Positions 8,961 to 54,746 of a stretch of DNA of 64,000 bases are shown piece by piece. The notes under the pieces are model-generated. The model was not told the origin of the DNA, made no database searches, and saw only the letters and a program-made list of their open reading frames with translations. The first letter of the stretch is position 1, and each line of letters starts with the position of its first letter. A program made the position numbers and the translations under genes. The DNA comes from an uncultured Candidatus Saccharibacteria bacterium (GTDB taxonomy: Bacteria > Patescibacteriota > Minisyncoccia > Phycocordibacterales > UBA6899). The stretch covers positions 132,674 to 196,673 of the forward strand of contig CAYXYK010000003.1 of the NCBI GenBank assembly GCA_964469335.1, read 5' to 3'.

Positions 8961-9112
8961 AATTTTTTAGTATACGTCAGCCTCGCGGGATTTGAGATGA
9001 GATGCGAGGAGCGGGCGAGTACGCGCCCGAGGCGTACGTGCTGGTACGGTGAGGGCGGGGCGGAGCCCGCGACAATGCAGGTCGCTCAAATCACGTGAGG
9101 TGTGAACAGGCG

Positions 9113-12100
9113 TTATTCTAACGCCTTCACTTTCTCCGCGATAACAGAGGGCGAATCATTCCGTCTCGAAAACTTCCCCTTAATCGCCACCATCTTATCC
9201 ACCACCAAAAACTCCTTCACCTCGGTGAAGGTGCGCGGGAACACCACAACTTCGATCGAGCCGGTGAAATCGGCCACCCGAAGGAACGCCATATGCTCGT
9301 TCTTTTTGGTGATCACCAGTTTGTGTTCTTCGATGATGCCGGCAAGGATCGTTGCCATGCCGTCACGGGTCTCTTCGTTCAGTTTCTTTATCGAACTACC
9401 ACTCTTCTCGATCTTCTCGCGGTGCTTCTCCAAGGGGTGCCCGGAAATATAGAGGCCGAGGAGTTCCTTCTCCCAGGCGAGCTTCGATTCTTGTGAGATC
9501 TCAGGAGCAGGGCGCATGCGTAGCGTCGGCATCGCGTGGGTGGTGCTCATCACGGAGAACAGCGACTCCTGATTGGAGGCTTTCTCGCGCGCATGTGCCT
9601 TGTGATACTCGAGTGCATCGTCGACATTGTGGAGGAGCACTCCGCGCTCTTCGCCCAAAGTATCGAAGCAGCCGGCGCGAATGAGCGACTCGAGTGACTT
9701 CTTGTTGAGGTCCTTGTGAGTGACACGCTCGAGGAATTCGGTGTAGCTCTTGTACGGACCATTCATATCTCGTTCCGCAATAATGGCATCACTTATCGCC
9801 TCACCCAAATTTTTAATTGTGTGTAGTCCAAAACGAATCTCATCTTTATTTACTGCTACGTCAGATTTGGATGAAGAGTGAGGCGCGGAGGAGGCGTCTT
9901 CGGGAGCTGTACGGGATGGTACTGCGACCGATGCGCCGACGCTTAGAGCGCAGCTATTCGCCAAATCTGGCTTAGCTTTGATGACGGTGAAGTCGGCTTG
10001 TGACTGATTGATGTCCGGAGGAAGCACATTAATCTTCATCCGCTTACACTCGGCGATCATCACCGCGATGGTGTCAGTGTCGCCACTTTCAGCCGTGAGG
10101 ACGGCGGTCATGTATTCGGCGGGGAAGTTGGCCTTCATGTATGCGGTCTGATAGGCGACGCGCCCATAGCAGGCGGCGTGCGCTTTGTTGAAACCGTACC
10201 CTTGGAACGGCTCGAAGAGTGCCCAAATAGCTTCAGCTTCTTCTTTCTTCATGCCGCTATGCGACTGACAGCCGTCGACGAAGATGACATGCTGCTTTGC
10301 CATTTCGGCGGGAATCTTCTTGCCGACCGCTTTGCGGAACTTGTCGACACCTTCCCAGTTGTATCCTGCGAGTTCGAGTGCGGTATAGAGGAGGTCGTCC
10401 TGATAGACGAGCACGCCGTAGCTCTTCGCGAGGAACGACTCTGCCTTGGGGTGGAAGTATTCGATCTTGCTGCGACCCTGCTTGCGCGCAATGTACTCGG
10501 GGATGTTGTTCATCGGACCCGGGCGATAGAGTGCGACCATCGCGTTGATGTCGTGGATGGTGGTCGGCTTGAGGTCGATCAAGTGTTTGGTCATGCCGGT
10601 ACCGTTCAATTGGAAGAGTCCTTCGGTCGCGCCGACGGCGAGCATCGCGAAGGTCTTCTTGTCGTCGAACGGAATCTTCTCGATCTCGATATCGATATTG
10701 CGATGCTCTTTCACCAGGCGTACCGCGTCACCGAGGATCGCGAGGTTTCGGATACCGAGGAAGTCGAGCTTGGTGAGGCCGACACCGTCTTCACCGACGG
10801 TGTACATGTCGTACTGGGTGATGAGCTTGCCACCCTTGGGGTCGAACTGGGTCGGCACGTATTCGATGAGGGGTTTCGGTGCGATCACCACACCCGCGGC
10901 ATGCACCGAGACATGGCGGACACATCCTTCGAGCTTCTTGGCGAGGTCGAGGATCTCGCGCGCCTCGGGGTCGGTGCCGTACATCTTCTTGAGGTCGGGT
11001 TCGAGGTCGAGCGCATGCTCGATGGTCATCGGGAATCCTTGCGAACCCATCGGGATGAGTTTCGAGATCTTGTCGCCGACGTCGTAGGGTTTGCCGAGCG
11101 CACGTGCGACGTCGCGCACCGAGCCGCGCGCCATCATGGTTCCGAAGGTACCGATCTGTGCGACCTTGTCTGCGCCGTACTTTCTTTTCGCGTACTCGAT
11201 CACTTCTTCGCGGCGGTTATCGGCGAAGTCCATATCGATATCGGGAGCGGACGGGCGGAACGGATTGAGGAAGCGCTCGAACGGCAGCTGGAATTCGATC
11301 GGGTCGACGTTGGTGATCCCCGAGAGGTACGCGACGTGCGAACCTGCCGCCGAACCACGCACGGTGGTGTAGATGCCGGCTTCGCGGGCAAAGCGCAAGA
11401 GGTCAGCGACCACGAGGAAGTACGGCGCGTAGTTCTTGTTCTTGATCACCTCGAGTTCGTACTTGCGGCGCTCCTCGGAGACCGTGTCGTTCGAGAGGCC
11501 GCGCTCCTTGGCGCCCTTCTGAGTGAGTTCGTCCAGCATCTGGTCCGCGGTCTTGCCGGGTTCGAGCGCGAAGTCAGGGAAGATGAATTTGCCGAGCGTG
11601 AGTTCGACGTTGCACTCTGCGGCGATCTTCGCGGTGTTGTATACCGCGTCAGGAGTCTTGGGGAAGAGGGCGAGCGCCTCTTTGGTCGAGATGAAGCTCG
11701 CGTCGAATTCGAACTTCATACCGTCGTCGACTCCGCCCACGCCGCCGGTCTGGATGCCAAGGAGGGTCTCGTGTGCTTTCTTGTCTTCCTTGTGGAGGTA
11801 GTGCGAGTCGTGGGTCGCGACGAGGGGAATATCGAGTTCGCGCGCGAGTGCGACCAGTGCGTCTTCGACCTCGTCATGTCCCTCGATCTCGGGCTTGTGC
11901 ATGATCTCGATGTAGTAGTTCTCCTTGCCGAAGATCTCCTGATACTCGAGTGCGATCGCGACCGCGCGGTCGTGGTCGCGACTACGCAGCGCTCGCGACA
12001 GCTCTCCGCCGAAACAGCCCGAGAGTGCGATCACGCCTTCCGAATACATCCGTAGCAAGTCTTTGTCGACGCGCGGTTTGTAGTAGTAGCCCTCGAGGTG

Positions 12101-12451: not shown

Positions 12452-12463
12452 GCCTAGATAGAT

Positions 12464-12472
12464 TATCCACAC
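12464..12472. promoter_or_regulatory. perfect DnaA-box 9-mer TTATCCACA upstream of the dnaE promoter
   Basis: Exact consensus match. A 6-2-6 palindrome ATTGTGccCACAAT (12495-12508) lies nearby. Confidence 0.3.
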
Positions 12473-12529
12473 GTATTGCCGAGGGGTGGTATCTATTGTG
12501 CCCACAATCTCGCATCATAGATACAAAAA

Positions 12530-14279: not shown

Positions 14280-14305
14280 TCTTTCCACCCAGGCCTTTTG
14301 GCCGA

Positions 14306-14328
14306 CCGCCCCTCGGGGCGGTTTTTTC
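14306..14328 (+). terminator. intrinsic terminator
   Basis: Hairpin CCGCCCC-tc-GGGGCGG followed by T6. Confidence 0.6.
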
Positions 14329-14357
14329 TTGTTGGTAATTCCATAAATGACAAACTT

Positions 14358-14425
14358 TTTCGTTGTGGGTCCCTGTCGCCTCATCACCATACTCCGAGTA
14401 TGGCTCTTTCGGCGACCACCCACGC
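14358..14425 (+). repeat. extended palindromic intergenic element (copy R1 of the recurrent family)
   Basis: Inner hairpin CCATAC-tccga-GTATGG is nested in outer stems GTGGGT..GTCGCC / GGCGAC..ACCCAC. Its 5' flank resembles copy R6. Confidence 0.4.
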
Positions 14426-14478
14426 CTCAAATTTTGTACATTTCTGAAATTCCACAGCAGGAACTGTGACAGAGAAAA

Positions 14479-28855: not shown

Positions 28856-29030
28856 TTCAGCAAATAAACCCTGTCTGCGGCGTTGCGGAGCCTCAGCGAT
28901 TTCAGTCGCCGTACTGTGAGTACGACTTCTTCATCGCTACTCCGCGCCTTGCATCCAAGGTCTCTTTGCAGAACTTATGCTTCTCAGCCTAGACGAAATC
29001 AGTTCTCGCTGATCGATACTTCAAAAATGC
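28856..29030 (+). repeat. intergenic element, family copy R4
   Basis: Begins right after the xfp stop. Central hairpin CGTACT-gtg-AGTACG (28910-28924). Boxes gttcagcaaat and cgccttgcatccaa are shared with R2, R5 and R9. Confidence 0.4.
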
Positions 29031-29039
29031 ATAAGGAAA

Positions 29040-29063
29040 GGCGCACCGTGGGGTGCGCCTTTT
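29040..29063. terminator. bidirectional terminator hairpin GGCGCACC-gtgg-GGTGCGCC
   Basis: Same stem as at 20870. A-run and T-run flank it. Confidence 0.55.
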
Positions 29064-29064
29064 G

Positions 29065-29514
29065 TCACTTCGCTCGTCGTGCAGAGAAGCTGATGGTGAA
29101 CGAATGTTCCTCGTCCTTAAGTGTGCCGGCGGTGCGAACGACCCGACGCGCCTTCCATGCCTCTTCCATCCACGGGGCGGCTTTCCTGACCCACATCATC
29201 ACTTCGCGTGTGGTGATGAGCACGTCCACTTGGCTCGACCCCTCCGGCTGCGGGATGAAGGCGAATCTGAGCGTCACCCGCTCGGCGTTTTCCGACGCGA
29301 CTTCGGTTGCATACAGCGTGCACTCTTCGCACTCGGGAAGCATCTTCGGTCTGCCTTCCAGTGGAATGGTGACTTCGAGGAAGAACGGATACAATCCCGT
29401 CCTCCTGTTCTTGCGCTCTCGAACGAACTTGAGGGTAACAGGGACTTGGTCCATTGTGACTCCGGTTGTGACAGAACGATGACGTGAAATTACCACAAAT
29501 AGCTGCTTCGTCAA
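29065..29514 (-). CDS. hypothetical protein
   Basis: 149-aa ORF. Start uncertain (an internal Met at 29454 is also possible). Confidence 0.4.
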   Translation of the reverse strand: MTKQLFVVISRHRSVTTGVTMDQVPVTLKFVRERKNRRTGLYPFFLEVTIPLEGRPKMLPECEECTLYATEVASENAERVTLRFAFIPQPEGSSQVDVLITTREVMMWVRKAAPWMEEAWKARRVVRTAGTLKDEEHSFTISFSARRAK

Positions 29515-29584
29515 GACATCGAACGCGAGAAAAGTGGGATAAGCCCTGATTTTACCTGATTTCGCATGCTACAATGTGAGGGTA

Positions 29585-31855
29585 ATGAGGTTGAAACGGT
29601 TGGAAATCTTTGGATTCAAATCCTTCGGCAAGAAGGCTGTTCTCGAGTTCTCCTCACAGATCACCTCGGTCGTCGGTCCGAATGGTTCCGGCAAATCCAA
29701 TGTCGCAGAAGGTATCCGTTTCGTACTCGGTGAACAGTCGATGAAATCGATGCGCGGTAAACGCGGAGAGGACCTCATCTTCAACGGCTCACAGTCGACC
29801 GGCCGCGCCAACCGTGCGAGTGTTGCGATCGTGTTCGACAACTCGAAGCGCGAATTTCCACTCGACTTCGACGAAGTCTCCGTCTCGCGTGAAGTCTATC
29901 GCGACGGCTCCAATCAGTATTTCATCAACGGCTCACAGGTCCGCCTCAAGGACGTGTTCGAGCTCCTCGCTTCAGTCCACATCGGCGCCTCGGGCCATCA
30001 CATGATCTCACAAGGTGAAGCAGACCGTATCTTGAATGCAAACCCGAAGGAGCGCCGCGAGATGCTCGAAGACGCGCTCGGTCTCAAGGTCTACCAATAC
30101 AAGCGCGCCGAGAGTGAACGCCGACTCGAGAAGACCGAAGAGAACCTGAAGGAGGCAGAGGCACTTCGCCGCGAGATCGCTCCGCACCTGCGCTTCCTCA
30201 AGAAGCAGGTAGAGAAGGTCAACGAAGGCAAAGCCCTGCGCGAGCGCCTGATCGGACTCTATCGTGAATATCTGAAGCGTGAAGAGATCTATATCACCCG
30301 AAAGAAAGAAGAGATCGCCGGGAAGCGTGCGGATCCCGCAGCTGAACTCGCCGACCTCATGATCAAAATAGCGCATGCGCGCGAACTCCTCGCAGGCGAG
30401 AATGCCGGCGACGAAAAGAGCCAGCGCCTCCTCGCGGTGGACGCCAAACTGCGCGAAGTGCGCCAGCGCCACGACGAACATTCCCGCACCGCAGGCCGTA
30501 TCGACGGTATGATCGAGTTCGAGGAGAAGCAGCTCAAGAAAAAGCAGGAAGCCCTCGAACACAAAGAAGATATTCCCATTCGCCTCGGCGACGTCGAAGG
30601 GCTCGAGAGTACAATCGCACAGGAAATAGCCATCGCTGAGAATTCCGACGACCTCCATGTCATCCGCGGTGTGTTCGGTCGTGTTCGCGCAGCGGTTCGC
30701 GACTTCATCAATCATCACAAGGTACAGGCAGGCGAAAAGACCCTCACCCAAGAAGACTATCGCGAGCTCGAGGAGCTAAAGGCGGAGCGTGCCCGCGCAG
30801 AGGATTCGCTCCGTGCGGTTTCCGAGGAGTCGGCACAAATGGAACGCGAGTATCAGGCAGTGAAGGCAGAGATCGACGCCGAGAAGCAGCACTCACGCGA
30901 GACCGAGCGTGCACTCTTCGAGATGATGAACCGCCGCGGTGAGCTGCAGTCTGTGCTCGACCGGATCAAGAACGAAGAGGACAACATTCTGCGCGAAGGG
31001 CGCCGCCTCGAAGAAGAACTCGGCGAAGCCGGCATCCTGCTTGGCCGTGCGGTGCTCGACTATTCCAATATTGAGCTTTCGATCGAAGAGGTCATGGGTG
31101 AACCGCGTGATTCCCAGGAGCAGCGTCGCCGTGAGATCGAACGCGGCAAGATCCGTCTCGAGGACATCGGTGCCCAGGGTGGGGAAGATGTCGAGAAGGA
31201 ATTCGCCGAGACGACCGAACGCGACAAATACCTCGAGAATGAGATCGCCGATCTGGTGAAGACCCAAGAGTCCCTCTACTCACTCATCGCCGAACTCAAT
31301 GAGAAGCTCAACAACGAATTCCGCGACGGCGTGAAGAAGATCAACAAGCAGTTCAGCGACTTCTTTACCTTGATGTTCGGTGGCGGTGTCGCAGAGCTGT
31401 TCGTGGTGAAGATCGAGAAACGCGGCAAGAAGAAGGACACCGAACTCGATCTCTCTGATCTTCCGGGAGAAGCAGTGGACGGAGAAGAGGAAGAGGACGA
31501 AGAGGGTATCGACATTGCCGTCTCACTTCCGCACAAGAAGACCAAGGGGCTCGTCATGCTCTCCGGCGGTGAGCGCGCACTCACATCAATTGCACTTCTC
31601 TTTGCAATCTCTCAGGTTAACCCGCCGCCGTTCATGGTGCTCGATGAGACCGATGCTGCCCTCGACGAAGCAAACTCACGCAAGTATGGCGACATGATCG
31701 AGAATCTCGCCAAACTCTCGCAGCTGATGGTGATTACCCACAACCGCGAGACCATGTCACGCGCTGGCACTATTTATGGGATCACGATGGGGGCGGATGC
31801 GGTGTCGAAGGTGCTTTCGATCTCCTTTGACGACGCCTCAGCTGTCGCGAAGTAA
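29585..31855 (+). CDS. smc: SMC-like chromosome segregation ATPase, short (about 756 aa) and lacking a recognisable hinge
   Basis: N-terminus MRLKRLEIFGFKSFGK..GPNGSGKSN. C-terminal signature LSGGERALTSIALLFAI and D-loop MVLDETDAALDE. TACAAT box lies 9 nt before ATG 29585, with an in-frame GTG at 29576. Confidence 0.7.
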   Translation: MRLKRLEIFGFKSFGKKAVLEFSSQITSVVGPNGSGKSNVAEGIRFVLGEQSMKSMRGKRGEDLIFNGSQSTGRANRASVAIVFDNSKREFPLDFDEVSVSREVYRDGSNQYFINGSQVRLKDVFELLASVHIGASGHHMISQGEADRILNANPKERREMLEDALGLKVYQYKRAESERRLEKTEENLKEAEALRREIAPHLRFLKKQVEKVNEGKALRERLIGLYREYLKREEIYITRKKEEIAGKRADPAAELADLMIKIAHARELLAGENAGDEKSQRLLAVDAKLREVRQRHDEHSRTAGRIDGMIEFEEKQLKKKQEALEHKEDIPIRLGDVEGLESTIAQEIAIAENSDDLHVIRGVFGRVRAAVRDFINHHKVQAGEKTLTQEDYRELEELKAERARAEDSLRAVSEESAQMEREYQAVKAEIDAEKQHSRETERALFEMMNRRGELQSVLDRIKNEEDNILREGRRLEEELGEAGILLGRAVLDYSNIELSIEEVMGEPRDSQEQRRREIERGKIRLEDIGAQGGEDVEKEFAETTERDKYLENEIADLVKTQESLYSLIAELNEKLNNEFRDGVKKINKQFSDFFTLMFGGGVAELFVVKIEKRGKKKDTELDLSDLPGEAVDGEEEEDEEGIDIAVSLPHKKTKGLVMLSGGERALTSIALLFAISQVNPPPFMVLDETDAALDEANSRKYGDMIENLAKLSQLMVITHNRETMSRAGTIYGITMGADAVSKVLSISFDDASAVAK

Positions 31856-31960
31856 TTTTGGCGCCCTCCTCGTCCTTCCTTCGGCGAACTTCGTCACCGT
31901 ACACCGCGTACGGCTCCGAAGTATCACCTCAGTCCAGGACTTCGGATTGCATCCAAAATT
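31854..31960 (+). repeat. MITE-like intergenic element, family copy R5
   Basis: Terminal inverted repeats AATTTTGG/CCAAAATT. Central hairpin CCGTAC-accgc-GTACGG (31897-31913) covaries with the R2 hairpin. Confidence 0.5.
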
Positions 31961-32441
31961 CCTTCGCTCCAGGGGACGGGGGATAAGTGTGGTGGAGAGA
32001 GCACAGAAGCGGAACGTCCTCTGAAAGAAACTCATGGAGCAAAATCTCATACTTTGACAATCCGTGGACGGTGGAGTAGTTTTCTCTTCGGAGAGGTAAC
32101 AGACGGATAGTGGCATTTGCCCCAAGAAGTGAAGGTGACTCTTGGTCCAGAGATCGCTGACTCCTGCGGGGGAAGGCGTGAGGCAAGGAGGTTCGACCCC
32201 TCCCCGTTGCGAACGTACTAGGATGTACTGTGTAGGATAGGTCTGAGGCTTTGAAGTGGTGTCGCCAGGCATCATGGAGCCACCGTTGAAATAAGACCCT
32301 GTATGTCTGAAGAGCGAAAGTTCTGAGCATTGCAATCCGACGTCGATGGCACTCTCGACAACACCCAGCACCGTTAGGTGTGCGGTAGTGATGCGTTGAC
32401 CGAATGATCGCGTACATAGTAGCCCTCTCCACCCCATACCA
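31961..32441 (+). other. unassigned noncoding region (candidate structured RNA or decayed element) ending at a + strand terminator
   Basis: No credible ORF on either strand. Contains a UUCG-loop hairpin (tTCTCttcgGAGAg) and a tRNA-like T-arm. A + strand terminator lies at 32442-32467. Confidence 0.25.
32166..32214 (+). other. fragment resembling a tRNA 3' end (T-arm GGAGG-TTCGACC-CCTCC + acceptor strand CCGTTGC + G) with a possible 7-nt partner GCGGGGG
   Basis: Canonical T-loop TTCGACC. Position 70 of the acceptor strand is U. No D or anticodon arm could be folded upstream. Confidence 0.3.
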
Positions 32442-32467
32442 CCGCCGTGCTCAGCACGGCGGTTTTT
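32442..32467 (+). terminator. intrinsic terminator
   Basis: Hairpin CCGCCGTGC-tca-GCACGGCGG followed by T5. Confidence 0.55.
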
Positions 32468-32481
32468 CATTTTTCGGTATA

Positions 32482-32509
32482 GAAAAAAGCGGCCGAGGGT
32501 TCGGCCGCT
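32482..32509 (-). terminator. intrinsic terminator for 32533..32727
   Basis: Hairpin AGCGGCCGA-gggt-TCGGCCGCT with T6 on the minus strand. Confidence 0.5.
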
Positions 32510-32532
32510 TTGCGTGCGGGGGGGCTGGGTGC

Positions 32533-32727
32533 TCAGCGCCGCCGGTGCGGATGTCCGTAGTACGGCCCGTAGTAGTACGGGTAGTAGCACGAATAGCAGT
32601 AGAGCGGCAGGTAGATCACCGGGGCGTCCACCGCCACTTGTCGCGGATCGTGCACCGGGACCGGCGTGAAGGCGCAGCCGCCGAGGGCGAGGAAGACGAG
32701 GAGCGAAGCGATGGATCGGACGAGCAT
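32533..32727 (-). CDS. small putative lipoprotein with Tyr-rich C-terminus
   Basis: Signal peptide with lipobox-like LGGC. Tail YCYSCYYPYYYGPYYG. Confidence 0.45.
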   Translation of the reverse strand: MLVRSIASLLVFLALGGCAFTPVPVHDPRQVAVDAPVIYLPLYCYSCYYPYYYGPYYGHPHRRR

Positions 32728-32819
32728 GGCAGTCTCCGGAAGTTGAACAGCTACAATAATTGTACATATTTATATCATTTTGTCAAAGTCTACCTAGAGC
32801 ACGACCAAACGGCGGTAAA

Positions 32820-32848
32820 TTGACTTAGCATGCTAACTTTGCTATATT
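32820..32848 (+). promoter_or_regulatory. promoter TTGACT-N17-TATATT
   Basis: Near-consensus boxes upstream of 32898. Confidence 0.35.
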
Positions 32849-34407: not shown

Positions 34408-34677
34408 ATGACCGTAGTCATGAAAGAGCAGGGATGTGTGGCATCGACCATCGGCTATTACTTGGTCATCATCGGTGCGATCAATTGGGGCCTCGTCGGG
34501 CTCAGTGATTTCACAATGATGAATCTCAATGTCGTGAACCTTCTCGTCGGGGGAATGCCGACGCTCGAGTCACTCGTCTATATTGCCGTCGGAGTCGCCG
34601 GAGTGATGACACTCATCGGGTGCAGATGCTCTACCTGCAAGGCCTGCCGCGTCGAAGGGGGAAACCCACAAAAATAG
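34408..34677 (+). CDS. DUF378-family small membrane protein
   Basis: Motif IIGAINWGLVGL and a 2-TM layout typical of the YuiB/DUF378 family. Confidence 0.55.
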   Translation: MTVVMKEQGCVASTIGYYLVIIGAINWGLVGLSDFTMMNLNVVNLLVGGMPTLESLVYIAVGVAGVMTLIGCRCSTCKACRVEGGNPQK

Positions 34678-34679
34678 CG

Positions 34680-34790
34680 AGCTTCTTCGTTGCGGGTCCC
34701 AACCTACTCAGTCAACATAGGAAGACTACGTCTTCTTCGCAGGTATTCCCGCGTCTCGAATCTCATCAATTTTTGCGAGTTTCAAGATAA
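34680..34790 (+). repeat. intergenic element, family copy R6
   Basis: Hairpin ACATAG-gaaga-CTACGT (34715-34731, one mismatch) enclosed by GCGGG/CCCGC. Flanks resemble R1 and R8. Confidence 0.45.
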
Positions 34791-34806: not shown

Positions 34807-34834
34807 AAAAACTCCCGCAGTTAGCGGGAGTTTT
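34807..34834. terminator. bidirectional terminator hairpin CTCCCGC-agtta-GCGGGAG
   Basis: A-run before and T-run after. Serves the convergent rnr gene. Confidence 0.55.
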
Positions 34835-38441: not shown

Positions 38442-38560
38442 GTCTCGGGGTGCACATGGTTATTATTTCCGTTATCGGCTGGGGCTAACCCCTCTCGCTT
38501 GTGGGTGTGCATTCTCTCTGCCTCACATATAATAGTGAAATTACGATTCAATTTAATTCC

Positions 38561-41500
38561 ATGAGATCATCTCGCCTGTTCGTGCTGCTTCTTCTTTCGA
38601 TCATGCCACTCCTGGCATCGACTCCGTTCGTCTTTGCGCAGTCTGAGACGGTGACAATGGGGGAGACCGCACTCGTCAGTGACGATGATTCTGGAAATGG
38701 AGGGCTTCTGCTTGCGCAGCAGGCGACACTCGCCCAATCAGGCACACTCCAGTCACTCTCGTTCTATGTAGCAGGGGCGAGCGGCAAGCTTAGGCTCGGA
38801 GTCTATGATGCGACAGGACCGGGCGGCGGACCGGGAGCTAAGCTCGCGGAAGCCGCAGAGATCACTCCGGTAGTCGGGTGGAACACCGCACCAGTCGTGA
38901 CTCCTGTCGCGCTCGCCGCAGGGACATATTGGCTCGCGTATGCACCCGAGAGCAGCAGTCTTCATTTTCGGCTTGTACAAGGGGTAGGCACACTTCGCTA
39001 CTACACGAAGGCGTACGGAGTGATGCCAACAACATTTTCAACTTCCCCGACTTCGTATAGTGGGCACTGGTCTTTCTACGCGACACTTGCAACTTCCGGC
39101 ACCCCGACACCTCCTCCCGCACCAACCCCTGTGAACGGCTCATGTGGAACTGCCAACAATGTCTCGGTCACTTCGATCCCCACGAGCAATCTCTGCAGCG
39201 TCGGCACTGCGTCAAGTGTCTCAGGAACAGGACCATGGAGTTGGACCTGTGCAGGAACGAATGGGGGAACCACAGCGAGTTGTGTTGCACCACTTACGGT
39301 CGTGACTCCTCCTGCTCCGACACCGACACCCAGCCCGTCTCCGTCCCCGGCACCTACTCCCGCTCCCTCCGGTAGCAACCCCCTCTCGACGCTCGCGGCG
39401 AGCATGACCCCCGGCACTTGGGCGCAACTTCCCGTGTCGAATCAAAATAGTGTTCTCGGCGTAGGTAGTGTTTCGGGAAGTATGATCCACTTTGTGAATT
39501 CCATGCCGTGGAATCCGATCAATAAACAGATCGAGATCATCGGGCAGGATCACGGTTACCCCGGCATGCGGCATGTGCGTTACGACTCTATTGCGAATCA
39601 GTTCGTGCTCGTTGCAGACAACGCGGGTATTCCTAATTCCGGTCACGGCTATGATCATATGTCGGTGAATCCGAACACGGGCGATCTCTATGTGCGACTT
39701 TACGGTGCCTTTAGTGGTGTGATCTCGTCCGTGAAGAAAACTTACGGAACATCAAACTTTGTGAGTATTCCTGATGTGCCCGCGTCAGCACAGGTGGCGA
39801 TCGGCACCGTGTGGTGGTCGGGGCCATTTATCGGTGGGGGAAGTCAGGGCTCATTCATGGTGTTCAACAGTGGCAATGCAGATATTTACAATGCAGGTGG
39901 ACTTGCATCTGATGGGCAGATCGTCGCATACAATCCGCTTACGAACTCTTGGTTCTACAATCAAACAGGGAGGTCACCATTTTATAGCAACGGGGGCAGT
40001 TATACGTATCACAGCATTATGGAATATAGTCCCATAAAGAATGTTGCTGTATATGGTGGCGGAAATGAGGCAAACAATAAACTCTGGCGGATGGATTCAA
40101 CCGGCGCAGTACAAGCAATGCCCAATGTCCCCACAGGTACCGCTGTTGGTATTCAGCAGGGCAATCTTGTGAACGACCCGGTTACTGGCAATTTCCTCCT
40201 TCTTTCTGGCGGACAACTTTGGGAGCTAAATCCTGATGGCGCTGGGACTTGGACGAAGAAAACCTCGCCCCCAAGCGGAGTCGGTGATCCGAAGGCACCA
40301 GCGGGAGTTGTTTCATCATCGATCACTGATTACGGTGTGGTGGCATACATATCGCAAACAAGTGGAACTGGTGGAACCTTCTTTCTCTATAAGCCGGCAA
40401 CATCAGGCGGCACTCCAACTCCCACCCCGCCACCACCCCCTCCTCCCGCCCCAACTCCGACACCTACGCCAACACCAACTCCACCCCCGCCGCCTCCACC
40501 ATCACCAACTCCCGCACCATCGACCAAGTTCACTATTGGTGCCCGTGTGCAGGTCTCGTCGGGTCCACTTAACGTACGCAGCACTGCGAACACCGTAGGC
40601 GCATTGCTCGGTACTCAGCAAACAGGGGCACTCGGTACGGTCACGTCCGGACCAACTGCACAAGGAGGATACAACTGGTGGAACGTGAACTTCGATAGTG
40701 GAGTTGATGGTTGGAGTGTTGAAGATTTTATGGTGACCTACGTGCCTCCACCAACACCACCGCCAGCCCAAACACCCTCTCCCACGCCGCCAGTCAGTAG
40801 CGCAGATTTCACAACGCGTTGTAGCGCTGCGGGGGTCGTGAAGTGTGTCGGATTTGATTCAGCATCCGACTTCAATACGGGCACCGGTGGGACAAATGGT
40901 GCATACGGACAAAACTACGGCATCTTTCCTCCTTCGGGAACTTCAGACTATACACGTGCCACTCAAGACACCGCACTCAAAGCCTCAGGCAATGGGTCAC
41001 TGAAATTTACCATCCCTTCAAATTCGGGTTCAGACACATCGGGTTCTTGGTTCACCAATTTTTCGAGTGACCTCAATACCCAATTTGATGGTGGCGAAGA
41101 ATTTTATGTGCAGTGGCGCCAGCGCTTTAGTCCGGAGTATTTGACGACAAGTTATGCAGGTAGTGGTGGCTGGAAGCAGGTCATTATCGGTACTGGTGAC
41201 AAACCGGGACAGCCTTACTCTTCCTGTTCTTCGCTCGAACTCCCTGTGCAGAATACGTACCTCCGAGGTTTTCCAGTTATGTACAACTCGTGCAGCGGCT
41301 CCACCTCACACGGCCCTTATAATCCTTTTGAAGAGCCATTTGGGAATTATGATTTTAAACTCCAGAATGCACGACCTGCACCGTACTGTCTCTACTCACA
41401 AAGCAGTACCGGATACTTTCCTCCTAACGGAAATTGTTTCGGTTACGTCGCGAACGAATGGATGACATTCCAAGTACATGTGAAGCTCGGTGCCCGCATT

Positions 41501-43936
41501 GGAGACGAATTCAAGAATAGTTATGTTGAGCTTTGGCTCGCACGTGAAGGTCAGCCTTCCCAGCAGTTGTTCAATTGGGGTCCATACAATTTGACCGCAG
41601 GCTCGTTAACTGAAAATCAAAAATTTGGAAAGGTGTGGTTGCTTCCGTATCAAACAGGGAAGTCCTCAGCGCAGTCGCACCCCACCGCATACACGTGGTA
41701 CGACGAACTCATCATCTCGCGCAACAAGATCGCTGATCCGACTGTTACAGGCGGCACCCCAACTCCAACCCCTCCACCACCACCCCCTCCTGCACCAACC
41801 CCAACTCCAACTCCCACACCTCCGCCAAGCCTCACCCCCGCACCATCAACAAAGTTCGCACTGAACGATCGCATTCAAATGACCGAGAATGTGAATGTAC
41901 GCGCAACGGCAAACACTGCCGGCACACTCTTGGGTACACAAACAACAGGCACTCTTGGCACCATCATTGGTGGTCCTATCGCACAAGGAGGATACAACTG
42001 GTGGAACGTGAACTTCGATAGTGGAGCCGACGGTTATGCAGCGGAAGACTTTATGTTAAAGTATGTCGTACCCGTTACTCCGCCGACAGCACCTTCCTCA
42101 GGCGCGACAGCGCTCTCAACGCTTGCTGCAGGAATGACCCCCGGCACTTGGGCGCAGCTCACTCCTTCGAATCAGAACTTCGTACTCGGCGTTGGCAACA
42201 TCTCCGGATCGATGATCCACTACATGAACTCTGCCGCCTGGAATCCGATCACGAAGAAGCTCGAGATCATCGGGATGGATCACAATTGGGGAAGCGAGCG
42301 CTACGCGCAGTATGACGCGATGACCAATGCATTCGTACTCGTCTCGAACGACGTCGGTTTCGGAAGCAGTGTCCGTCACGGCTACGACCACAATGCGGTG
42401 AACCCGTACACCGGCGTCGTGTATAACCGACTCTCGAACATCGCTTCCGGGGTTCTTTCTATCCGCTATACCAACTCCGGTTCGGCGAGTTTTGCCTCAA
42501 CTCCCGACATCGCAACCGGCTATGATCAGATCGCCGTAGGCTCCGCATGGTGGTCGGGCTCGTTCACCGGAGCGGGAAGTCAGGGTGCGTTCTTCATCTA
42601 CAATAGCGGTGACTCGAACGGCTCCGCCACGGACGGACATATGGTCGCGTACGACCCGGTGAAGAATTCATGGATATTGAACAAACACGGTGTCTCGCCG
42701 AACTACTCCGTTACTGGCAGCACCTATCACAGTGTGATGGAATACAGCCCAGTGAAGAATGTTGCGGTCTACGGCGGCGGCAACGATGCAACGACGAGAC
42801 TCTGGAAGATGGATTCGACCGGTACGGTCACTGCGATGCCGAATGTCCCGACAGGGAAGGGCGTCGGCATTCAGCAAGGCAATCTTGTGAATGATCCGGT
42901 CACCGGCAACTTCCTGCTGCTCTCGGCGGGGGAGCTCTGGCAGCTCAACCCCGACGGCGCGGGCACTTGGACGAAGCTTGCGAATCCTCCCTCGGGAGTC
43001 GGAATTCCCGGACCTTCAGTCACCGACGGCGTCATCTCTTCCGCGATATCGGAATACGGAGTCATCGTCTACGTGAAACAGACTTCTTCGACCGGTGGAA
43101 CGTTCTATCTCTACAAACCCGCAAGCGGAGGCACTGTCACCCCGTCACCAACTCCTTCTCCAACCCCGACTCCCACTCCGACTCCGTCCCCATCACCAAC
43201 TCCAACCCCCGCACCCTCCACCAAATTCACACTGAGCACACGCATCCAAGTCTCCTCAGGACCTCTCAACGTCCGCAGTACGGCCAATACCTCGGGCACC
43301 CTCCTTGGTACACAAGCCACCAATGCACTCGGTACCATCTCGGGAGGACCCACCGCACAAGGAGGATATAGCTGGTGGAATGTGAACTTCGATAGTGGTG
43401 TCGACGGCTACGTGGCAGAAGACTTCCTGGTGACATACACTGCACCGACACCTGCACCAGTTACACCTCCAACTCCCGCACCAGTCTCCCCACCCGCAGC
43501 AACACCACCAACGCCAACTCCTCCCGCATCCGGCGGAGGCGGCGGGGGAGGTGGCAGTACGCCAACCCCACCACCCACTCCTCCTTCCTCTGGAGGTGGG
43601 GGAGTCGGATCATACGGAGGCGGCGGCAGTGTCTATACTCCTCCTGCTCCCGTCACTCCGGTCGCTACTTCCACCAAAGCAACCACCACTCCGAAGCTCA
43701 CCCTCACCAAGAACCTCTACCGCGGTCTCAAACACGCAGAGGTACTCAAGCTTCAGAACTTCCTCATCACACTCGGCTACCTTGCCAAAGACTCTGCCAC
43801 CGGGTACTACGGACCACTCACGCAGAAGGCAGTACAAACGTACCAGTGTGCAAGCCTGAAGCTGTGTTCCGGTACTCCTCAATCGAACGGCTATGGCAAT
43901 GTCGGACCCAAGACCAGGAAGCAGATGGCTGGGTAG
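38561..43936 (+). CDS. giant secreted modular cell-surface protein (1791 aa from Met 38561)
   Basis: Signal peptide MRSSRLFVLLLLSIMPLLASTPFVFA. Modules in order: a Cys-containing small module, beta-propeller-like domain A (about 39370-40390), Pro/Thr linkers, SH3b-like module 1 (about 40514-40740), ConA-like lectin/lyase-like domain (about 40800-41740), SH3b 2 (about 41845-42064), duplicate domain A' (about 42101-43120), SH3b 3 (about 43213-43440), poly-Gly/PT region, and a C-terminal PG_binding_1-like domain. Confidence 0.7.
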   Translation: MRSSRLFVLLLLSIMPLLASTPFVFAQSETVTMGETALVSDDDSGNGGLLLAQQATLAQSGTLQSLSFYVAGASGKLRLGVYDATGPGGGPGAKLAEAAEITPVVGWNTAPVVTPVALAAGTYWLAYAPESSSLHFRLVQGVGTLRYYTKAYGVMPTTFSTSPTSYSGHWSFYATLATSGTPTPPPAPTPVNGSCGTANNVSVTSIPTSNLCSVGTASSVSGTGPWSWTCAGTNGGTTASCVAPLTVVTPPAPTPTPSPSPSPAPTPAPSGSNPLSTLAASMTPGTWAQLPVSNQNSVLGVGSVSGSMIHFVNSMPWNPINKQIEIIGQDHGYPGMRHVRYDSIANQFVLVADNAGIPNSGHGYDHMSVNPNTGDLYVRLYGAFSGVISSVKKTYGTSNFVSIPDVPASAQVAIGTVWWSGPFIGGGSQGSFMVFNSGNADIYNAGGLASDGQIVAYNPLTNSWFYNQTGRSPFYSNGGSYTYHSIMEYSPIKNVAVYGGGNEANNKLWRMDSTGAVQAMPNVPTGTAVGIQQGNLVNDPVTGNFLLLSGGQLWELNPDGAGTWTKKTSPPSGVGDPKAPAGVVSSSITDYGVVAYISQTSGTGGTFFLYKPATSGGTPTPTPPPPPPPAPTPTPTPTPTPPPPPPPSPTPAPSTKFTIGARVQVSSGPLNVRSTANTVGALLGTQQTGALGTVTSGPTAQGGYNWWNVNFDSGVDGWSVEDFMVTYVPPPTPPPAQTPSPTPPVSSADFTTRCSAAGVVKCVGFDSASDFNTGTGGTNGAYGQNYGIFPPSGTSDYTRATQDTALKASGNGSLKFTIPSNSGSDTSGSWFTNFSSDLNTQFDGGEEFYVQWRQRFSPEYLTTSYAGSGGWKQVIIGTGDKPGQPYSSCSSLELPVQNTYLRGFPVMYNSCSGSTSHGPYNPFEEPFGNYDFKLQNARPAPYCLYSQSSTGYFPPNGNCFGYVANEWMTFQVHVKLGARIGDEFKNSYVELWLAREGQPSQQLFNWGPYNLTAGSLTENQKFGKVWLLPYQTGKSSAQSHPTAYTWYDELIISRNKIADPTVTGGTPTPTPPPPPPPAPTPTPTPTPPPSLTPAPSTKFALNDRIQMTENVNVRATANTAGTLLGTQTTGTLGTIIGGPIAQGGYNWWNVNFDSGADGYAAEDFMLKYVVPVTPPTAPSSGATALSTLAAGMTPGTWAQLTPSNQNFVLGVGNISGSMIHYMNSAAWNPITKKLEIIGMDHNWGSERYAQYDAMTNAFVLVSNDVGFGSSVRHGYDHNAVNPYTGVVYNRLSNIASGVLSIRYTNSGSASFASTPDIATGYDQIAVGSAWWSGSFTGAGSQGAFFIYNSGDSNGSATDGHMVAYDPVKNSWILNKHGVSPNYSVTGSTYHSVMEYSPVKNVAVYGGGNDATTRLWKMDSTGTVTAMPNVPTGKGVGIQQGNLVNDPVTGNFLLLSAGELWQLNPDGAGTWTKLANPPSGVGIPGPSVTDGVISSAISEYGVIVYVKQTSSTGGTFYLYKPASGGTVTPSPTPSPTPTPTPTPSPSPTPTPAPSTKFTLSTRIQVSSGPLNVRSTANTSGTLLGTQATNALGTISGGPTAQGGYSWWNVNFDSGVDGYVAEDFLVTYTAPTPAPVTPPTPAPVSPPAATPPTPTPPASGGGGGGGGSTPTPPPTPPSSGGGGVGSYGGGGSVYTPPAPVTPVATSTKATTTPKLTLTKNLYRGLKHAEVLKLQNFLITLGYLAKDSATGYYGPLTQKAVQTYQCASLKLCSGTPQSNGYGNVGPKTRKQMAG

Positions 43937-44032: not shown

Positions 44033-44359
44033 ATGGCTGAAACATTCAGTGACAAGGAGTTCCTCGAATTCGTGGTGAAGAACCTTGTCGATAAACCGGA
44101 CGCAGTCAAAGTGACTCGTGTGGTAGACGAAATGGGAGTATTACTGACACTCGATATCGATCCTGAAGACATGGGCAAGGTGATCGGACGCATGGGCAAC
44201 ACTGCCAAGGCGGTCCGCACTCTGCTTCGCGTCGTCGGAATGAAGAACAATGCGCGTGTGAACCTGAAGATCAACGAGCCTGAGGGCGGCAAGCGTGCCG
44301 GACAGGTGGCATCGGATTCGTCGGACGTATCTGACATCATCGCCGATCTCAAAGCTTAA
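44033..44359 (+). CDS. KH-domain RNA-binding protein (UPF0109 family)
   Basis: Motif VIGRMGNTAKAVRTLL. Normally lies between rpsP and rimM/trmD. Confidence 0.7.
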   Translation: MAETFSDKEFLEFVVKNLVDKPDAVKVTRVVDEMGVLLTLDIDPEDMGKVIGRMGNTAKAVRTLLRVVGMKNNARVNLKINEPEGGKRAGQVASDSSDVSDIIADLKA

Positions 44360-44552
44360 ATTTCCAAATCGAGCTTCTCGCTCGAGTTTCTCAAAACAGA
44401 CCCAGTCGTCGTACTCCGAGTACGCCTTCCGGGTCTGTTTTGCTATTACTCTCGAGATGTATCTCGATTAGGTATCTTCACAATGAGTCAACTCAAGGAT
44501 TCGCTTTTGATCTAAAATTTCTTCGAGTCTTCAAGTGATGGAATTTGGAAAT
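44360..44552 (+). repeat. composite MITE-like element, family copy R7, with 10-bp terminal inverted repeats ATTTCCAAAT/ATTTGGAAAT
   Basis: Terminal inverted repeats at 44360-44369 and 44543-44552. Nested hairpin: outer AACAGACCC/GGGTCTGTT, inner CGTAC-tccga-GTACG (44395-44441), followed by a T-run. Second hairpin CTCGAGAT/ATCTCGA. Confidence 0.45.
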
Positions 44553-51367: not shown

Positions 51368-51815
51368 TCAACAAATCACAAAGGAGTCTCTTGCTCCGTC
51401 GTCACTCGGCCGAAATGAGAAAGAAGACTCTCTCACTCCAGGCCTCGCTAGCCGGAGTAATCTCATCATCGAAACACTCGTCGGTTCCATCCTGATCGCC
51501 ATCGTCATCCTGATCCTCAACCCGATGGACTTCTGGATGCCGGATATGGCACACGTCACCGCACTCACGATGCTTCTGGTCGTTTTCGTACTCTATGCCT
51601 CGTTCATTCTGCGCGAGAAAGCGCGCGACGAGCGTGACGTACTGCACCGCATGTTCGCCGCCCGCGCCGCGTTCTTCACCGGCACCGCACTTCTCACGCT
51701 TGGGGTATTCTTCGGCGCCCTAAAGGGTGATATCGACATGTGGCTGGTCATTTCTCTTGTCGGAATGATACTCGCGAAGCTTGTTGCCCGCTTCTACTCA
51801 GACAAAAACCTTTAG
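51357..51815 (+). CDS. membrane protein partner of the XRE regulator
   Basis: 152 aa with 4 TM helices. Its start overlaps the XRE gene by 11 nt. Confidence 0.5.
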
Positions 51816-51819
51816 AACG

Positions 51820-51960
51820 GGCGGATTTCTTTGTTGTAAGGCGAAGCACTTATCCCCAGCTAATTCAATCAACGTAGGAGGACTACGTCTTTTTCGTGAA
51901 CTATCCCGCGCCGCGAACTCCATCCCGTTCTATGGGTTTTAGAGATAGGTATTCTATGTA
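51820..51960 (+). repeat. intergenic element, family copy R8
   Basis: Hairpin ACGTAG-gagga-CTACGT (51872-51888). 5' box gggcggatttctttgttg resembles R3 and R1. Confidence 0.4.
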
Positions 51961-53889: not shown

Positions 53890-54010
53890 AACTTTTGATT
53901 TTGGCAGTCTACTGCGTTGGCTGCGTCGCGAATCTGTTAACGTACAATGAGTACGTCTCACAGGGCTCGCTTCCCTGGCGCCTTGTATCCAATCCAAAAT
54001 CAAAAGTTTT
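53888..54010 (+). repeat. MITE-like element, family copy R9, with perfect 17-bp terminal inverted repeats AAAACTTTTGATTTTGG / CCAAAATCAAAAGTTTT
   Basis: Terminal inverted repeats at 53888-53904 and 53994-54010 (verified as exact reverse complements). Central hairpin ACGTAC-aatga-GTACGT (53940-53956). Internal boxes align with R2. Confidence 0.55.
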
Positions 54011-54061: not shown

Positions 54062-54625
54062 ATGAAAAACGAAATTGCCATTTTTGGAGGAGGATGCTTC
54101 TGGTGCACCGAAGCAGTGTTTCAGATGATGAAGGGCGTCAGCGCCGTAAAGCCAGGCTATGCCGGCGGCGAGAAAGCGAACCCTACCTATCAAGAAGTTT
54201 CTTCTGGTATGACCGGCCACGCCGAAGTCATTCATATCACCTATGACCCAAGCGTGGTGAAGTACACCGACCTCCTCACGGTATTCTTTGGTTCACATGA
54301 TCCGACCACCAAGAATAGACAAGGTGCCGATGTCGGTACCCAGTATCGCTCGATCATCCTCACCACGAGCGATGAACAAGCAACAGAAGCCAAGAAGTTC
54401 ATCGAAGAACTCAACACCTCGAGCGAATTCGGTGACCCGATCGTCACTGAAGTGGAGCCGCTCAAAGAGTTCTACGGCGCCGAGGACTATCACAAGAATT
54501 ATTTCCGTGACAATCCGAACCAAGGCTACTGCCAGATTGTCATCAATCCGAAACTCGAAAAAGTGAAAAAGAATTTTGCAGCGTTGTTGGACAGCACGTA
54601 CGCAAATAGCGCACTTCAGCGTTGA
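54062..54625 (+). CDS. msrA: peptide methionine sulfoxide reductase A
   Basis: Active-site motif GGGCFWCTE. Confidence 0.85.
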   Translation: MKNEIAIFGGGCFWCTEAVFQMMKGVSAVKPGYAGGEKANPTYQEVSSGMTGHAEVIHITYDPSVVKYTDLLTVFFGSHDPTTKNRQGADVGTQYRSIILTTSDEQATEAKKFIEELNTSSEFGDPIVTEVEPLKEFYGAEDYHKNYFRDNPNQGYCQIVINPKLEKVKKNFAALLDSTYANSALQR

Positions 54626-54746
54626 CCGCGCCGTCGAGTCCCCTCAACGTACCAATGTGTACGCCTCGCGGACATCTCGGCTTGTCGCCTCGAATTGCAT
54701 CTATTTGCTTAAGTGCTCAATGATTTAACAAATAAACAAAACTAAT

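What the first reader, a model, noticed from the sequence alone, without database searches (positions are those of the whole stretch)
31854..31960. Compensatory base changes in the central hairpin between repeat copies R2, R5 and R9
R5 and R2 align base-for-base over about 107 nt at roughly 75% identity. Both begin TAAttttggc immediately after a stop codon. Their central stems differ at both ends in a strictly compensating way: R2 ACGTAG/CTACGT, R5 CCGTAC/GTACGG, R9 ACGTAC/GTACGT. Other copies show related stems: R8 ACGTAG/CTACGT, R4 CGTACT/AGTACG, R3 CCTTAC/GTAAGG. The loops differ freely (aaaac, accgc, aatga). Pairing is maintained despite sequence change. This argues for selection on RNA or DNA secondary structure, not just shared ancestry.
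Basis: seen in the sequence. Interest (0 to 1): 0.8.

Follow-up and report, generated by a model that had tools for sequence, protein, structure and literature searches.

The report
Palindromic repeat family in CPR bacteria
The hairpin is the tip of a roughly 108-base rod-shaped repeat scattered through the genomes of tiny uncultured bacteria (Candidatus Lloydbacteria and relatives); it usually sits right at gene stop codons, is sometimes inserted in frame inside genes, and keeps its fold through many compensating base changes.

Summary
The central hairpin at 31897-31913 is the apex of a ~108-nt imperfect palindrome (31853-31962).

- **Copies.** The window holds 12 copies. About 99 were found in 2.4 Mb of related Paceibacterota and metagenome DNA.
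- **Covariation.** All 30 modelled base pairs show double compensatory changes. 87% of cells pair, against 30-41% when partners are slid by 1-3 columns. Internal loops stay conserved.
- **Rfam.** No family matches.
- **Position.** The 5' end lies -3 to +13 nt from the stop codon of a co-oriented gene in most copies. This recurs after SMC, khpA, rnc, nusB-nudix and dnaE.
- **Flanks.** Locus-specific flanks extend the stem over the stop codon.
- **Behaviour as selfish DNA.** The element sits in frame inside dnaE in sense, antisense or double form, while other relatives have the site empty. It is also in frame in a glycosyltransferase-like ORF. It is present or absent among close relatives. Pairing is Watson-Crick only.

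Best reading: an undescribed palindromic element that works like the Rickettsia palindromic elements (RPE), ERIC and Correia repeats. Its folded single-stranded form is under constraint, and it is co-transcribed into 3' UTRs. A host-level RNA role is not excluded.

The parts
31853..31962 (+). Copy R5, the finding: full 108-position match to the repeat model. TAA 31853-31855 is the SMC stop codon.
   Evidence: 82.5 bits, E 8e-18. ORF 29576-31855. SMC_N.
31847..31967 (+). Whole hairpin of R5 including locus-specific flank pairing. GCGAAG (the last two SMC codons, 31847-31852) pairs with CTTCGC (31962-31967). AATTTTGG (31854-31861) pairs with CCAAAATT (31953-31960).
   Evidence: fold (z -4.5 as DNA; both strands fold). 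(RNA, -37.5 kcal/mol, z -5.1).
31888..31922 (+). Apical module of R5. Helix ACTTCG/CGAAGT (31888-93 / 31917-22), 3x3 internal loop TCA/CTC, apical stem CCGTAC/GTACGG (31897-902 / 31908-13), loop ACCGC.
   Evidence: Conserved TCA/CTC loop and covarying stems.
17532..17641 (+). Copy R2. TAA 17532-17534 is the stop codon of the NusB-NUDIX ORF.
   Evidence: 76.9 bits..
20353..20460 (+). Copy R3, 8 nt after the RNase III stop codon (ORF 19643-20344).
   Evidence: 79.6 bits..
20466..20512 (+). Probable partial 3' arm of a second copy of the R2/R5 subtype (tcagtccaagacttcg), in tandem with R3.
   Evidence: nhmmer hit 20416-20511; sequence similarity to the 3' arms of R2 and R5.
28866..28964 (+). Copy R4, degenerate, 11 nt after the phosphoketolase stop codon. 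A canonical terminator-like hairpin follows near 29040.
   Evidence: 27.8 bits, E 1.5e-4..
34669..34776 (+). Copy R6, overlapping the DUF378 ORF stop codon. A canonical terminator lies at 34808-34834, just downstream.
   Evidence: 47.4 bits..
44365..44472 (+). Copy R7, 5 nt after the khpA stop codon (ORF 44033-44359). khpA is also followed by a copy in L005, L070 and L025.
   Evidence: 33.5 bits..
51813..51933 (+). Copy R8, with TAG 51813-51815 as the stop codon of ORF 51204-51815.
   Evidence: 37.4 bits..
53896..54003 (+). Copy R9, 6 nt after the DsbD/thioredoxin ORF stop codon. It has a 17-bp perfect basal stem, aaaacttttgattttgg/ccaaaatcaaaagtttt.
   Evidence: 78.2 bits..
54601..54710 (+). 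Copy R10. The MsrA (PMSR) ORF ends inside its 5' arm at 54625.
   Evidence: 83.2 bits..
14342..14447 (+). Copy R1, directly after a canonical terminator-like hairpin at 14304-14323.
   Evidence: 38.8 bits..
8987..9093 (-). Minus-strand copy, 19 nt after the stop codon of the minus-strand dnaE gene.
   Evidence: 75.4 bits..
9861..9969 (-). Copy inserted in frame inside dnaE (9113-12505, minus strand). It encodes a ~39-aa insertion in the HHH_6 domain.
   Evidence: 74.8 bits..

Best explanation
This is a previously undescribed family of about 108-nt imperfect-palindrome repeats in Candidatus Lloydbacteria and other Paceibacterota (candidate phyla radiation). It works like the Rickettsia palindromic elements (RPE), ERIC and Correia repeats.

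**Shown**
- Each copy folds into one long rod.
- Copies are dispersed, sometimes tandem or partial. They are gained and lost between close relatives.
- Copies can sit in frame inside essential genes in either orientation.
- Most lie with their 5' end at the stop codon of a gene on the same strand.

**Inferred**
- The element spreads, or is homogenised, at the DNA level through its folded single-stranded form. An unidentified protein would recognise the conserved loops and bulges. This is why stems may change only in complementary, Watson-Crick fashion.
- Survivors accumulate just 3' of stop codons in the sense orientation, because that position and orientation are tolerated or targeted.
- Snap-back (template-switch) synthesis at the palindrome gradually copies the upstream flank in inverted form. 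This draws the stop codon and the last codons into the stem.
- Because the element is transcribed with the upstream gene, it puts a stable hairpin starting at the stop codon into the mRNA. This probably affects 3'-end stability, processing or termination of translation as a side effect, as shown for REP, ERIC and Correia repeats.
For: **Repeat family and structure**
- 12 window copies.
- about 99 copies in 2.4 Mb.
- covariation in 30 of 30 pairs.
- loops are conserved above 80% while stems vary.

**Mobility at the DNA level**
- The same dnaE loop carries the element in sense orientation (window, L086), in antisense (L082), as a head-to-head pair (L083), or is empty (L085, L036, P0011, P0039).
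- L104 has an in-frame copy in a glycosyltransferase-like ORF.
- L002 (88% SMC identity) lacks the copy after the phosphoketolase gene and has only a remnant after nudix.
- L085 has no copy in 23 kb.
- Copies at different loci of one genome are often closer to each other (75-76%) than copies at the same locus in different genomes (60-64%).
- Tandem clusters occur.
- Cores are depleted in stop codons: 2.9 of 6 frames are open, against 1.6 in shuffles.
- Pairing is Watson-Crick only. Apart from one conserved U.G pair, there are 49 G.U cells against 75 A.C cells.
- Copies in ORFs or in antisense orientation score as well as post-stop copies.

**Position and orientation**
- An ORF of at least 100 aa ends at the element's 5' end on the same strand in 41 of 75 copies. 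The mirror-image arrangement occurs in 6 of 75.
- In L086 and L082, using independent gene calls, minus-strand genes carry minus-strand copies and plus-strand genes carry plus-strand copies within a few kb. Orientation therefore follows transcription, not the replichore.

**Flank pairing**
- Mean score 5.3 against 1.3 for mismatched flanks, p = 3e-35.
- After SMC, the 3' flank co-varies with the last codons in six genomes.

**Not a terminator**
- Canonical terminators follow or precede several copies.
Against: - No transposase or autonomous parent element with matching ends was found.
- The only Y1 transposase seen (L082) has unrelated end hairpins.
- No clear target-site duplication was found.
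- The tight spacing to stop codons, the transcription-linked orientation and the recurrence after the same genes (SMC in 6 genomes, khpA in 4, nusB-nudix in at least 4) would also fit a host-selected RNA function.
- No expression or mobility data exist.
- The alignments behind searches were fitted to the model's structure. About a third of the pooled copies were retrieved with a sequence pattern that fixes part of helix 1.
Confidence: 0.6

Rival explanations
1. Host-functional cis-acting RNA. The rod is a 3'-UTR or intercistronic module selected by the host. It could be an RNase III processing site, a 3'-exonuclease barrier that defines mRNA ends right at the stop codon, or a stall signal for terminating ribosomes, as described for REP hairpins within 15 nt of a stop codon. 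Under this reading the copies inside genes are occasional by-products.
For: - The 5' end lies -3 to +13 nt from stop codons, and orientation follows the local gene strand.
- The same genes carry it across relatives whose SMC is only 52-60% identical.
- The basal stem is extended over the stop codon at each locus.
- Asymmetric loops and a U.G pair are conserved and would be C.A on the other strand.
- Stem mismatches are pyrimidine-rich on the sense strand.
- The element lies upstream of canonical terminators, so it would be transcribed.
Against: - There is no excess of G.U over A.C.
- Intact, high-scoring copies occur in antisense orientation inside dnaE and upstream of start codons.
- Close relatives do without it at the same loci, and one related contig (L085) has no copy in 23 kb and its neighbouring stretch L003 only one weak match.
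- Copies do not cluster by locus.
Confidence: 0.25
2. There is no constraint on structure. The 'compensatory' changes would be a mutational by-product. In a long DNA palindrome, intrastrand template switching (quasi-palindrome correction) copies a change from one arm to the other and extends the palindrome outward. Pairing would then persist without selection.
For: - Pairing is Watson-Crick only.
- The palindrome extends into locus-specific flanks, including 16-18 bp inside the dnaE reading frame in L082.
- Both strands fold equally well.
Against: - This process would erase bulges and internal loops. Instead the C/AT bulge, the 6x6 loop, the TCA/CTC loop, an A.A mismatch subtype and a U.G pair are the most conserved parts across about 75 copies that are 50-75% identical.
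- It does not explain strand orientation relative to genes.
Confidence: 0.1
3. It is a variant intrinsic transcription terminator or an integron attC-like recombination site at gene 3' ends.
For: It is a hairpin immediately after stop codons. The fold is conserved while the sequence is variable, as in attC sites.
Against: - No U-tract follows the rod, and canonical GC-rich terminators with T-runs occur separately next to copies.
- There are no attC core sites (RYYYAAC/GTTRRRY) by inspection of the consensus, and no cassette array.
- It follows conserved housekeeping genes at syntenic positions.
- Copies occur inside ORFs.
Confidence: 0.03

Closest known systems
Rickettsia palindromic elements (RPE)
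   Same: - Palindromic repeats of roughly 100-150 bp in a reduced genome.
- Dispersed copies, both intergenic and inserted in frame into unrelated protein-coding genes without destroying them (review PMC10969869). Here that applies to dnaE and a glycosyltransferase-like ORF.
- No known transposase.
- Stop-poor sequence.
   Different: - Different phylum, and no sequence relationship was tested.
- Most copies here are not in genes but abut stop codons in the sense orientation.
- The same dnaE site is occupied in both orientations.
- Copies are much more diverged, with stem covariation.
ERIC (enterobacterial repetitive intergenic consensus) and Correia/nemis repeats
   Same: - Imperfect palindromes of about 100-150 bp, co-transcribed with neighbouring genes.
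- They fold into long RNA hairpins that RNase III (Correia) or RNase E (ERIC at 3' ends of Yersinia genes) can process.
- Correia elements can invert (PMC10969869).
   Different: - Correia has 26-bp terminal inverted repeats with a TA duplication and promoters. No target duplication was detected here.
- Positioning at the stop codon and orientation bias are far stronger here.
REP/BIME elements with RAYT (Y1) transposases
   Same: - Extragenic palindromes downstream of genes, often clustered.
- Recognised as folded single strands by a Y1 HUH enzyme.
- From my own knowledge (Liang, Rudd and Deutscher 2015, Mol Cell): REP hairpins within 15 nt of a stop codon stall terminating ribosomes.
   Different: - REPs are 20-40 nt single hairpins with a GTAG-type foot, and RAYT genes are flanked by them.
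- Here the unit is a 108-nt multi-helix rod.
- The one Y1 transposase seen nearby (L082) is an IS200-like element with unrelated end hairpins.
Integron attC sites
   Same: An imperfect palindrome right after an ORF, in a fixed orientation. Structure and extrahelical bases are conserved while sequence is not. It acts as folded single-stranded DNA.
   Different: No attC core sites, no cassette arrays and no integrase context. It follows syntenic housekeeping genes and occurs inside ORFs.

Membership tests
Prokaryotic MITE | Small (under about 300 bp), non-autonomous, many dispersed copies | tested here: met
   About 108 nt. 12 copies in 64 kb. About 99 copies in 2.4 Mb of relatives and metagenome contigs.
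Prokaryotic MITE | Terminal inverted repeats | tested here: met
   The whole unit is an imperfect palindrome, and the basal helix ATTTTGG/CCAAAAT covaries. The ends are not sharply defined, because pairing continues into the flanks.
Prokaryotic MITE | Target-site duplication (direct repeats) at the flanks | tested here: inconclusive
   only a slight excess of shared words of 5 nt or more (23% against 9%). The flanks are inverted complements, not direct repeats.
Prokaryotic MITE | Cognate autonomous IS with the same ends | tested here: inconclusive
   No split 5'/3' arms enclosing an ORF were found in 2.4 Mb of held loci. Whole genomes could not be scanned.
Rickettsia palindromic elements | Palindromic repeat inserted in frame in protein-coding genes | tested here: met
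   A 39-aa insertion in the dnaE HHH_6 domain. Sense, antisense, double and empty alleles exist. L104 has a copy in a glycosyltransferase-like ORF.
Rickettsia palindromic elements | Sequence homology to the RPE families of Rickettsia | not tested
   No RPE sequences were available in the tools. The host is a different phylum, so membership is not claimed.
REP/RAYT | 20-40 nt hairpin with a conserved GTAG-type foot, and a RAYT gene flanked by the repeats | tested here: not met
   The unit is a 108-nt rod. The flanks of the L082 Y1_Tnp gene do not match the model (best 6.9 bits) and carry different hairpins.
Intrinsic terminator | GC-rich hairpin followed by a U-tract | tested here: not met
   The terminator scan reports canonical sites beside the copies (14304, 34808) but not the rods themselves. 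Only two apical hairpins pass weakly.
Any Rfam family | Match to a curated covariance model | tested here: not met
   Gathering-threshold scan of the window and E-value scans of two strong copies gave no relevant match.
Integron attC | R''/R' core sites and a cassette array next to an integrase | tested here: not met
   The consensus lacks RYYYAAC/GTTRRRY. The neighbours are syntenic housekeeping genes.

The most novel reading that the evidence does not exclude
The rod is not merely selfish DNA. It would be a lineage-wide, host-exploited module of Paceibacterota that embeds the stop codon in a protein-recognised RNA (or single-stranded DNA) structure. This would mark gene 3' ends for mRNA processing or stabilisation, or for control of translation termination, in organisms with reduced ribosomes and RNA-decay machinery. 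Mobility would serve to distribute the module.
Probability: 0.15. Interest if true: 0.8.

Novelty: new variant of a known kind. Interest (0 to 1): 0.55.

Why it matters
Genomes of the candidate phyla radiation are regarded as streamlined, yet here about 2% of a 64-kb stretch is one structured repeat family.

- It is a rare case of a repeat with near-complete stem covariation and conserved loops. This implies a specific protein partner that is still unknown.
- It remodels essential proteins: the same DnaE loop has at least four allelic states.
- It places a stable hairpin on the stop codon of many housekeeping genes.
- It gives a testable handle on mobile-DNA mechanisms and on 3'-end biology of mRNAs in uncultured bacteria.
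- It provides a marker for strain typing.
- It warns genome annotators that these regions create spurious ORF extensions and protein insertions.

Tried and rejected
- **Rfam.** Scans at gathering and E-value thresholds found nothing for the repeat.
- **Terminator idea.** Rejected, because canonical terminators lie beside the copies and no U-tract follows the rod.
- **Y1 (IS200-like) transposase next to dnaE in L082.** Examined as a possible mobiliser. Its ends carry unrelated direct-repeat hairpins, the model does not match them, and the window has no homologue.
- **Autonomous parent.** A search for separated 5' and 3' arms in held loci found none. L174 was inspected with no result.
- **Viral contigs.** 23 pattern matches, none confirmed by the model, so all are chance.
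- **Target-site duplication.** No convincing signal.
- **Wobble-pair test for RNA against DNA.** No G.U excess, so the strand or molecule could not be assigned that way.
- **Context and intactness.** No difference in bit score between post-stop copies and copies in other contexts.
- **Greedy ORF calling.** It mislabelled several neighbours (antisense shadow ORFs of khpA). This was corrected by translation, which shows khpA-like KH proteins, and by Pfam for the window copy.
- **Literature.** Searches for a described Parcubacteria or Patescibacteria repeat or MITE found nothing relevant.
- **Source contig.** The look-up of encoding contigs for the window's phosphoketolase returned only a 6.5-kb contig. 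The rest of the source genome could not be scanned.
Full report
**1. The observation**

- R2 (17532-17641) and R5 (31853-31962) align without gaps at 76% identity over 108 nt (family D7).
- The apical stems are ACGTAG/CTACGT (R2), CCGTAC/GTACGG (R5, 31897-31913) and ACGTAC/GTACGT (R9, 53940). Their loops are unrelated.
A covariance-model alignment puts all of them in the same columns.
- One correction: the TAA that opens R2 and R5 is the stop codon of the upstream ORF, not a triplet after it.

**2. What the hairpin belongs to**

Folding shows that the 6-bp stem is the tip of a long imperfect hairpin of about 108 nt. Energies are -28 to -43 kcal/mol, with z = -4.6 to -6.0.

I collected copies by iterative nhmmer search and then with a covariance model, R1. 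The model was built from a MAFFT alignment of 22 copies and its RNAalifold consensus.
- With filters off, R1 finds 12 copies in the window: 8987-9093(-), 9861-9969(-), 14342-14447, 17532-17641, 20353-20460, 28866-28964, 31853-31962, 34669-34776, 44365-44472, 51813-51933, 53896-54003 and 54601-54710.
- A partial 3' arm lies near 20466-20512.
- Together these make up about 2% of the window.

**3. Host organism and wider distribution**

The SMC protein upstream of R5 retrieves Candidatus Lloydbacteria and other Paceibacterota (candidate phyla radiation) genomes.
- The model finds 37 copies in those 1.4 Mb.
- It finds 11 more around dnaE homologues.
- After a pattern scan of metagenome contigs, it finds 59 more.
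- No copy was confirmed on viral contigs.

**4. Covariation**

- On the sequence-only alignment, 22 of 25 predicted pairs keep pairing through changes on both sides.
- On 75 pooled copies, 30 of 30 pairs do so. 87.4% of cells form standard pairs, against 29.6-41.5% when partners are slid by 1-3 columns. None of 500 shuffles reaches any observed measure (37-copy version).
- The stems are the variable part. The conserved parts are bulges and loops: GGCG and the C/AT bulge near the base, the internal loop yTCGTTG/CGCCTCG with a U.G pair present in 57 of 75 copies, the 3x3 loop TCA/CTC under the apical stem, and CATCC.
- Copies are 50-76% identical, so they are not recent duplicates.
- Caveats: the pooled alignments are fitted to the model, and the metagenome copies were selected with a pattern that fixes part of helix 1.

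**5. RNA or DNA?**

- Apart from the single conserved U.G pair, G.U cells (49) are no more frequent than A.C cells (75) (29 against 43 in the first set). Pairing is therefore essentially Watson-Crick, both strands fold, and the wobble signature expected of a sense-strand RNA is absent.
- The element is nevertheless strand-asymmetric. The conserved bulges and the U.G pair exist on one strand only. Stem mismatches are pyrimidine-rich on that strand.

**6. Genomic context**

- In most copies the model's first base lies -3 to +13 nt from the stop codon of a gene on the same strand (corrected).
- A test that needs no gene calls gives the same result. An ORF of at least 100 aa ends at the element's 5' end on the same strand in 41 of 75 copies, against 6 of 75 for the mirror arrangement.
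- With independent gene calls, L086 has minus-strand copies 0-6 nt after the minus-strand SMC, rnc, nusB-nudix and gyrB genes, on both sides of a plus-strand block. L082 has a plus-strand copy after the plus-strand dnaE gene and a minus-strand copy after the minus-strand nudix gene. Orientation therefore tracks local transcription, not the replichore.
- The same genes recur: SMC in six genomes, khpA in four, nusB-nudix in at least four, rnc in three, and dnaE.
- Canonical GC-rich terminators with T-runs lie just after or just before several copies (14304-14323, 34808-34834). The rod is therefore a 3'-UTR or intercistronic passenger, not the terminator.

**7. Flank pairing**

- Sequence outside the model pairs too. 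The mean score is 5.3, against 1.3 when 5' and 3' flanks of different copies are combined. 57% reach a score of 5 or more, against 4% of controls (p = 3e-35).
- For R5, the last two SMC codons GCGAAG pair with CTTCGC at 31962-31967. The stop codon therefore sits inside a 15-bp basal helix.
- After SMC, the 3' flank changes along with the last codons of the gene in the other genomes: caaaataac/gttattttg in L010, gcgaaatagc/gttatttcgc in L005 and aataactt/aagttatt in L004.
- No convincing direct target duplication is seen.

**8. Evidence that it is mobile DNA**

- The copy at 9861-9969 lies in frame inside dnaE (9113-12505, minus strand). It adds 39 residues within the HHH_6 domain relative to the L036 orthologue.
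- Among DnaE homologues, the same loop carries the element in four states:
  - in sense orientation (window, L086, P0005, P0007);
  - in antisense (L082, confirmed by the model at 79 bits; P0010 and P0041 by their peptides);
  - as a head-to-head pair (L083/L084, two independent assemblies);
  - not at all (L085, L036, P0011, P0039).
- A further in-frame copy sits in a glycosyltransferase-like ORF in L104.
- L002 (SMC 88% identical) lacks the copy after the phosphoketolase gene and keeps only a 30-nt remnant after nudix.
- L085 has no copy in 23 kb.
- Copies at different loci of one genome are often more alike than copies at the same locus in different genomes.
- Tandem and partial copies occur.
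- Cores are depleted in stop codons.
- Copies in ORFs or in antisense orientation score as high as post-stop copies.

**9. Mechanism**

Shown: a family of rod-forming palindromes whose stems covary and whose loops are conserved; insertion polymorphism, including in-frame insertions in both orientations; and a strong bias to sit at stop codons in the sense orientation.

Inferred:
- The element propagates, or is homogenised, through a folded single-stranded form that an unknown protein recognises.
- The post-stop, sense-oriented position is either targeted or the only well-tolerated one.
- Snap-back synthesis at the palindrome copies the upstream flank in inverted form and so extends the stem over the stop codon. 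This also explains the 16-18-bp extensions inside the dnaE frame in L082.
- Co-transcription places a stable hairpin at the stop codon, with likely effects on mRNA stability, processing or termination. Such effects are documented for Correia, ERIC and REP repeats (review PMC10969869; the REP/stop-codon effect is from my own knowledge).

The main rival is a host-selected RNA module. It is favoured by position, orientation and recurrence. It is disfavoured by the lack of wobble tolerance, by intact antisense and in-ORF copies, and by dispensability in close relatives. Template switching alone cannot explain the conserved asymmetric loops.

**10. Comparison and novelty**

- The element works like RPE (in-frame palindromic insertions) and like ERIC and Correia repeats (long co-transcribed palindromes).
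- It fails the REP/RAYT, terminator, attC and Rfam membership tests.
- The MITE criteria of a target duplication and an autonomous parent remain unmet or untested.
- Literature searches found no description of such a repeat in Parcubacteria or Patescibacteria.
- I rate it a new variant of a known kind, of moderate interest. It is an undescribed, strongly structured repeat family in candidate phyla radiation genomes, with unusual stop-codon embedding and a multi-allelic DnaE insertion site.

Noticed in passing
window 32221-32308 (+): An isolated 88-nt match to bacterial 23S rRNA positions 2127-2214 (the L1 stalk, helices 76-78), at 61 bits and E = 1e-15. No rRNA gene is nearby. It lies in an ORF-poor stretch between R5 and ORF 32404-32823, which has no Pfam match. 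It could be an L1-binding mimic or an rRNA fragment. It is absent from the syntenic loci L002-L005, L017 and L086.
   Followed up: partly
DnaE homologues P0017, P0034, P0035, P0048, P0027, P0032 (same loop as window 9861-9969): The same DnaE HHH-loop site carries other, unrelated insertions in other Lloydbacteria. Examples are 'SPLQGEGG...PHPNPLLNKERG' and 'ADLTPVAE..SLRGTAQT'. The loop appears to be a general hotspot, possibly for further repeat families.
   Followed up: no
L082 5860-6440: An IS200-like element lies between the RNase HII gene and dnaE. It has a 146-aa Y1_Tnp gene (E = 4.5e-32) flanked on both sides by the hairpin motif CCCnnGnGCTGACGCnnnGGGGTATyTG. A 28%-identical homologue is in L006 at 6685-7068.
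   Followed up: partly
window 38501-43936 (+): An 1811-aa ORF with long internal Pro/Thr-rich repeats and three ~1.3-kb tandem segments (repeat families D1-D6).
   Followed up: no
window 49374-49468 (+): tRNA-Arg(TCG) is predicted at 95 nt, which is unusually long for a bacterial tRNA. It may have an insertion or an intron.
   Followed up: no
window 16866-17534; L009 4378-5310; L021 3306-4217: NusB is fused to a NUDIX hydrolase domain in this lineage.
   Followed up: no
window 7013-7060 and 7718-7765: A repeated terminator-like hairpin, AAAAGAACTGCCCCGCGG(G/A)TGCGGGGCAG, occurs 705 nt apart (family D10).
   Followed up: no
window 28965-29575: The phosphoketolase-SMC spacer is 720 nt here but about 80 nt in L002. 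Besides copy R4, it holds a canonical terminator-like hairpin near 29040 and a possible minus-strand 149-aa ORF (29065-29514).
   Followed up: no
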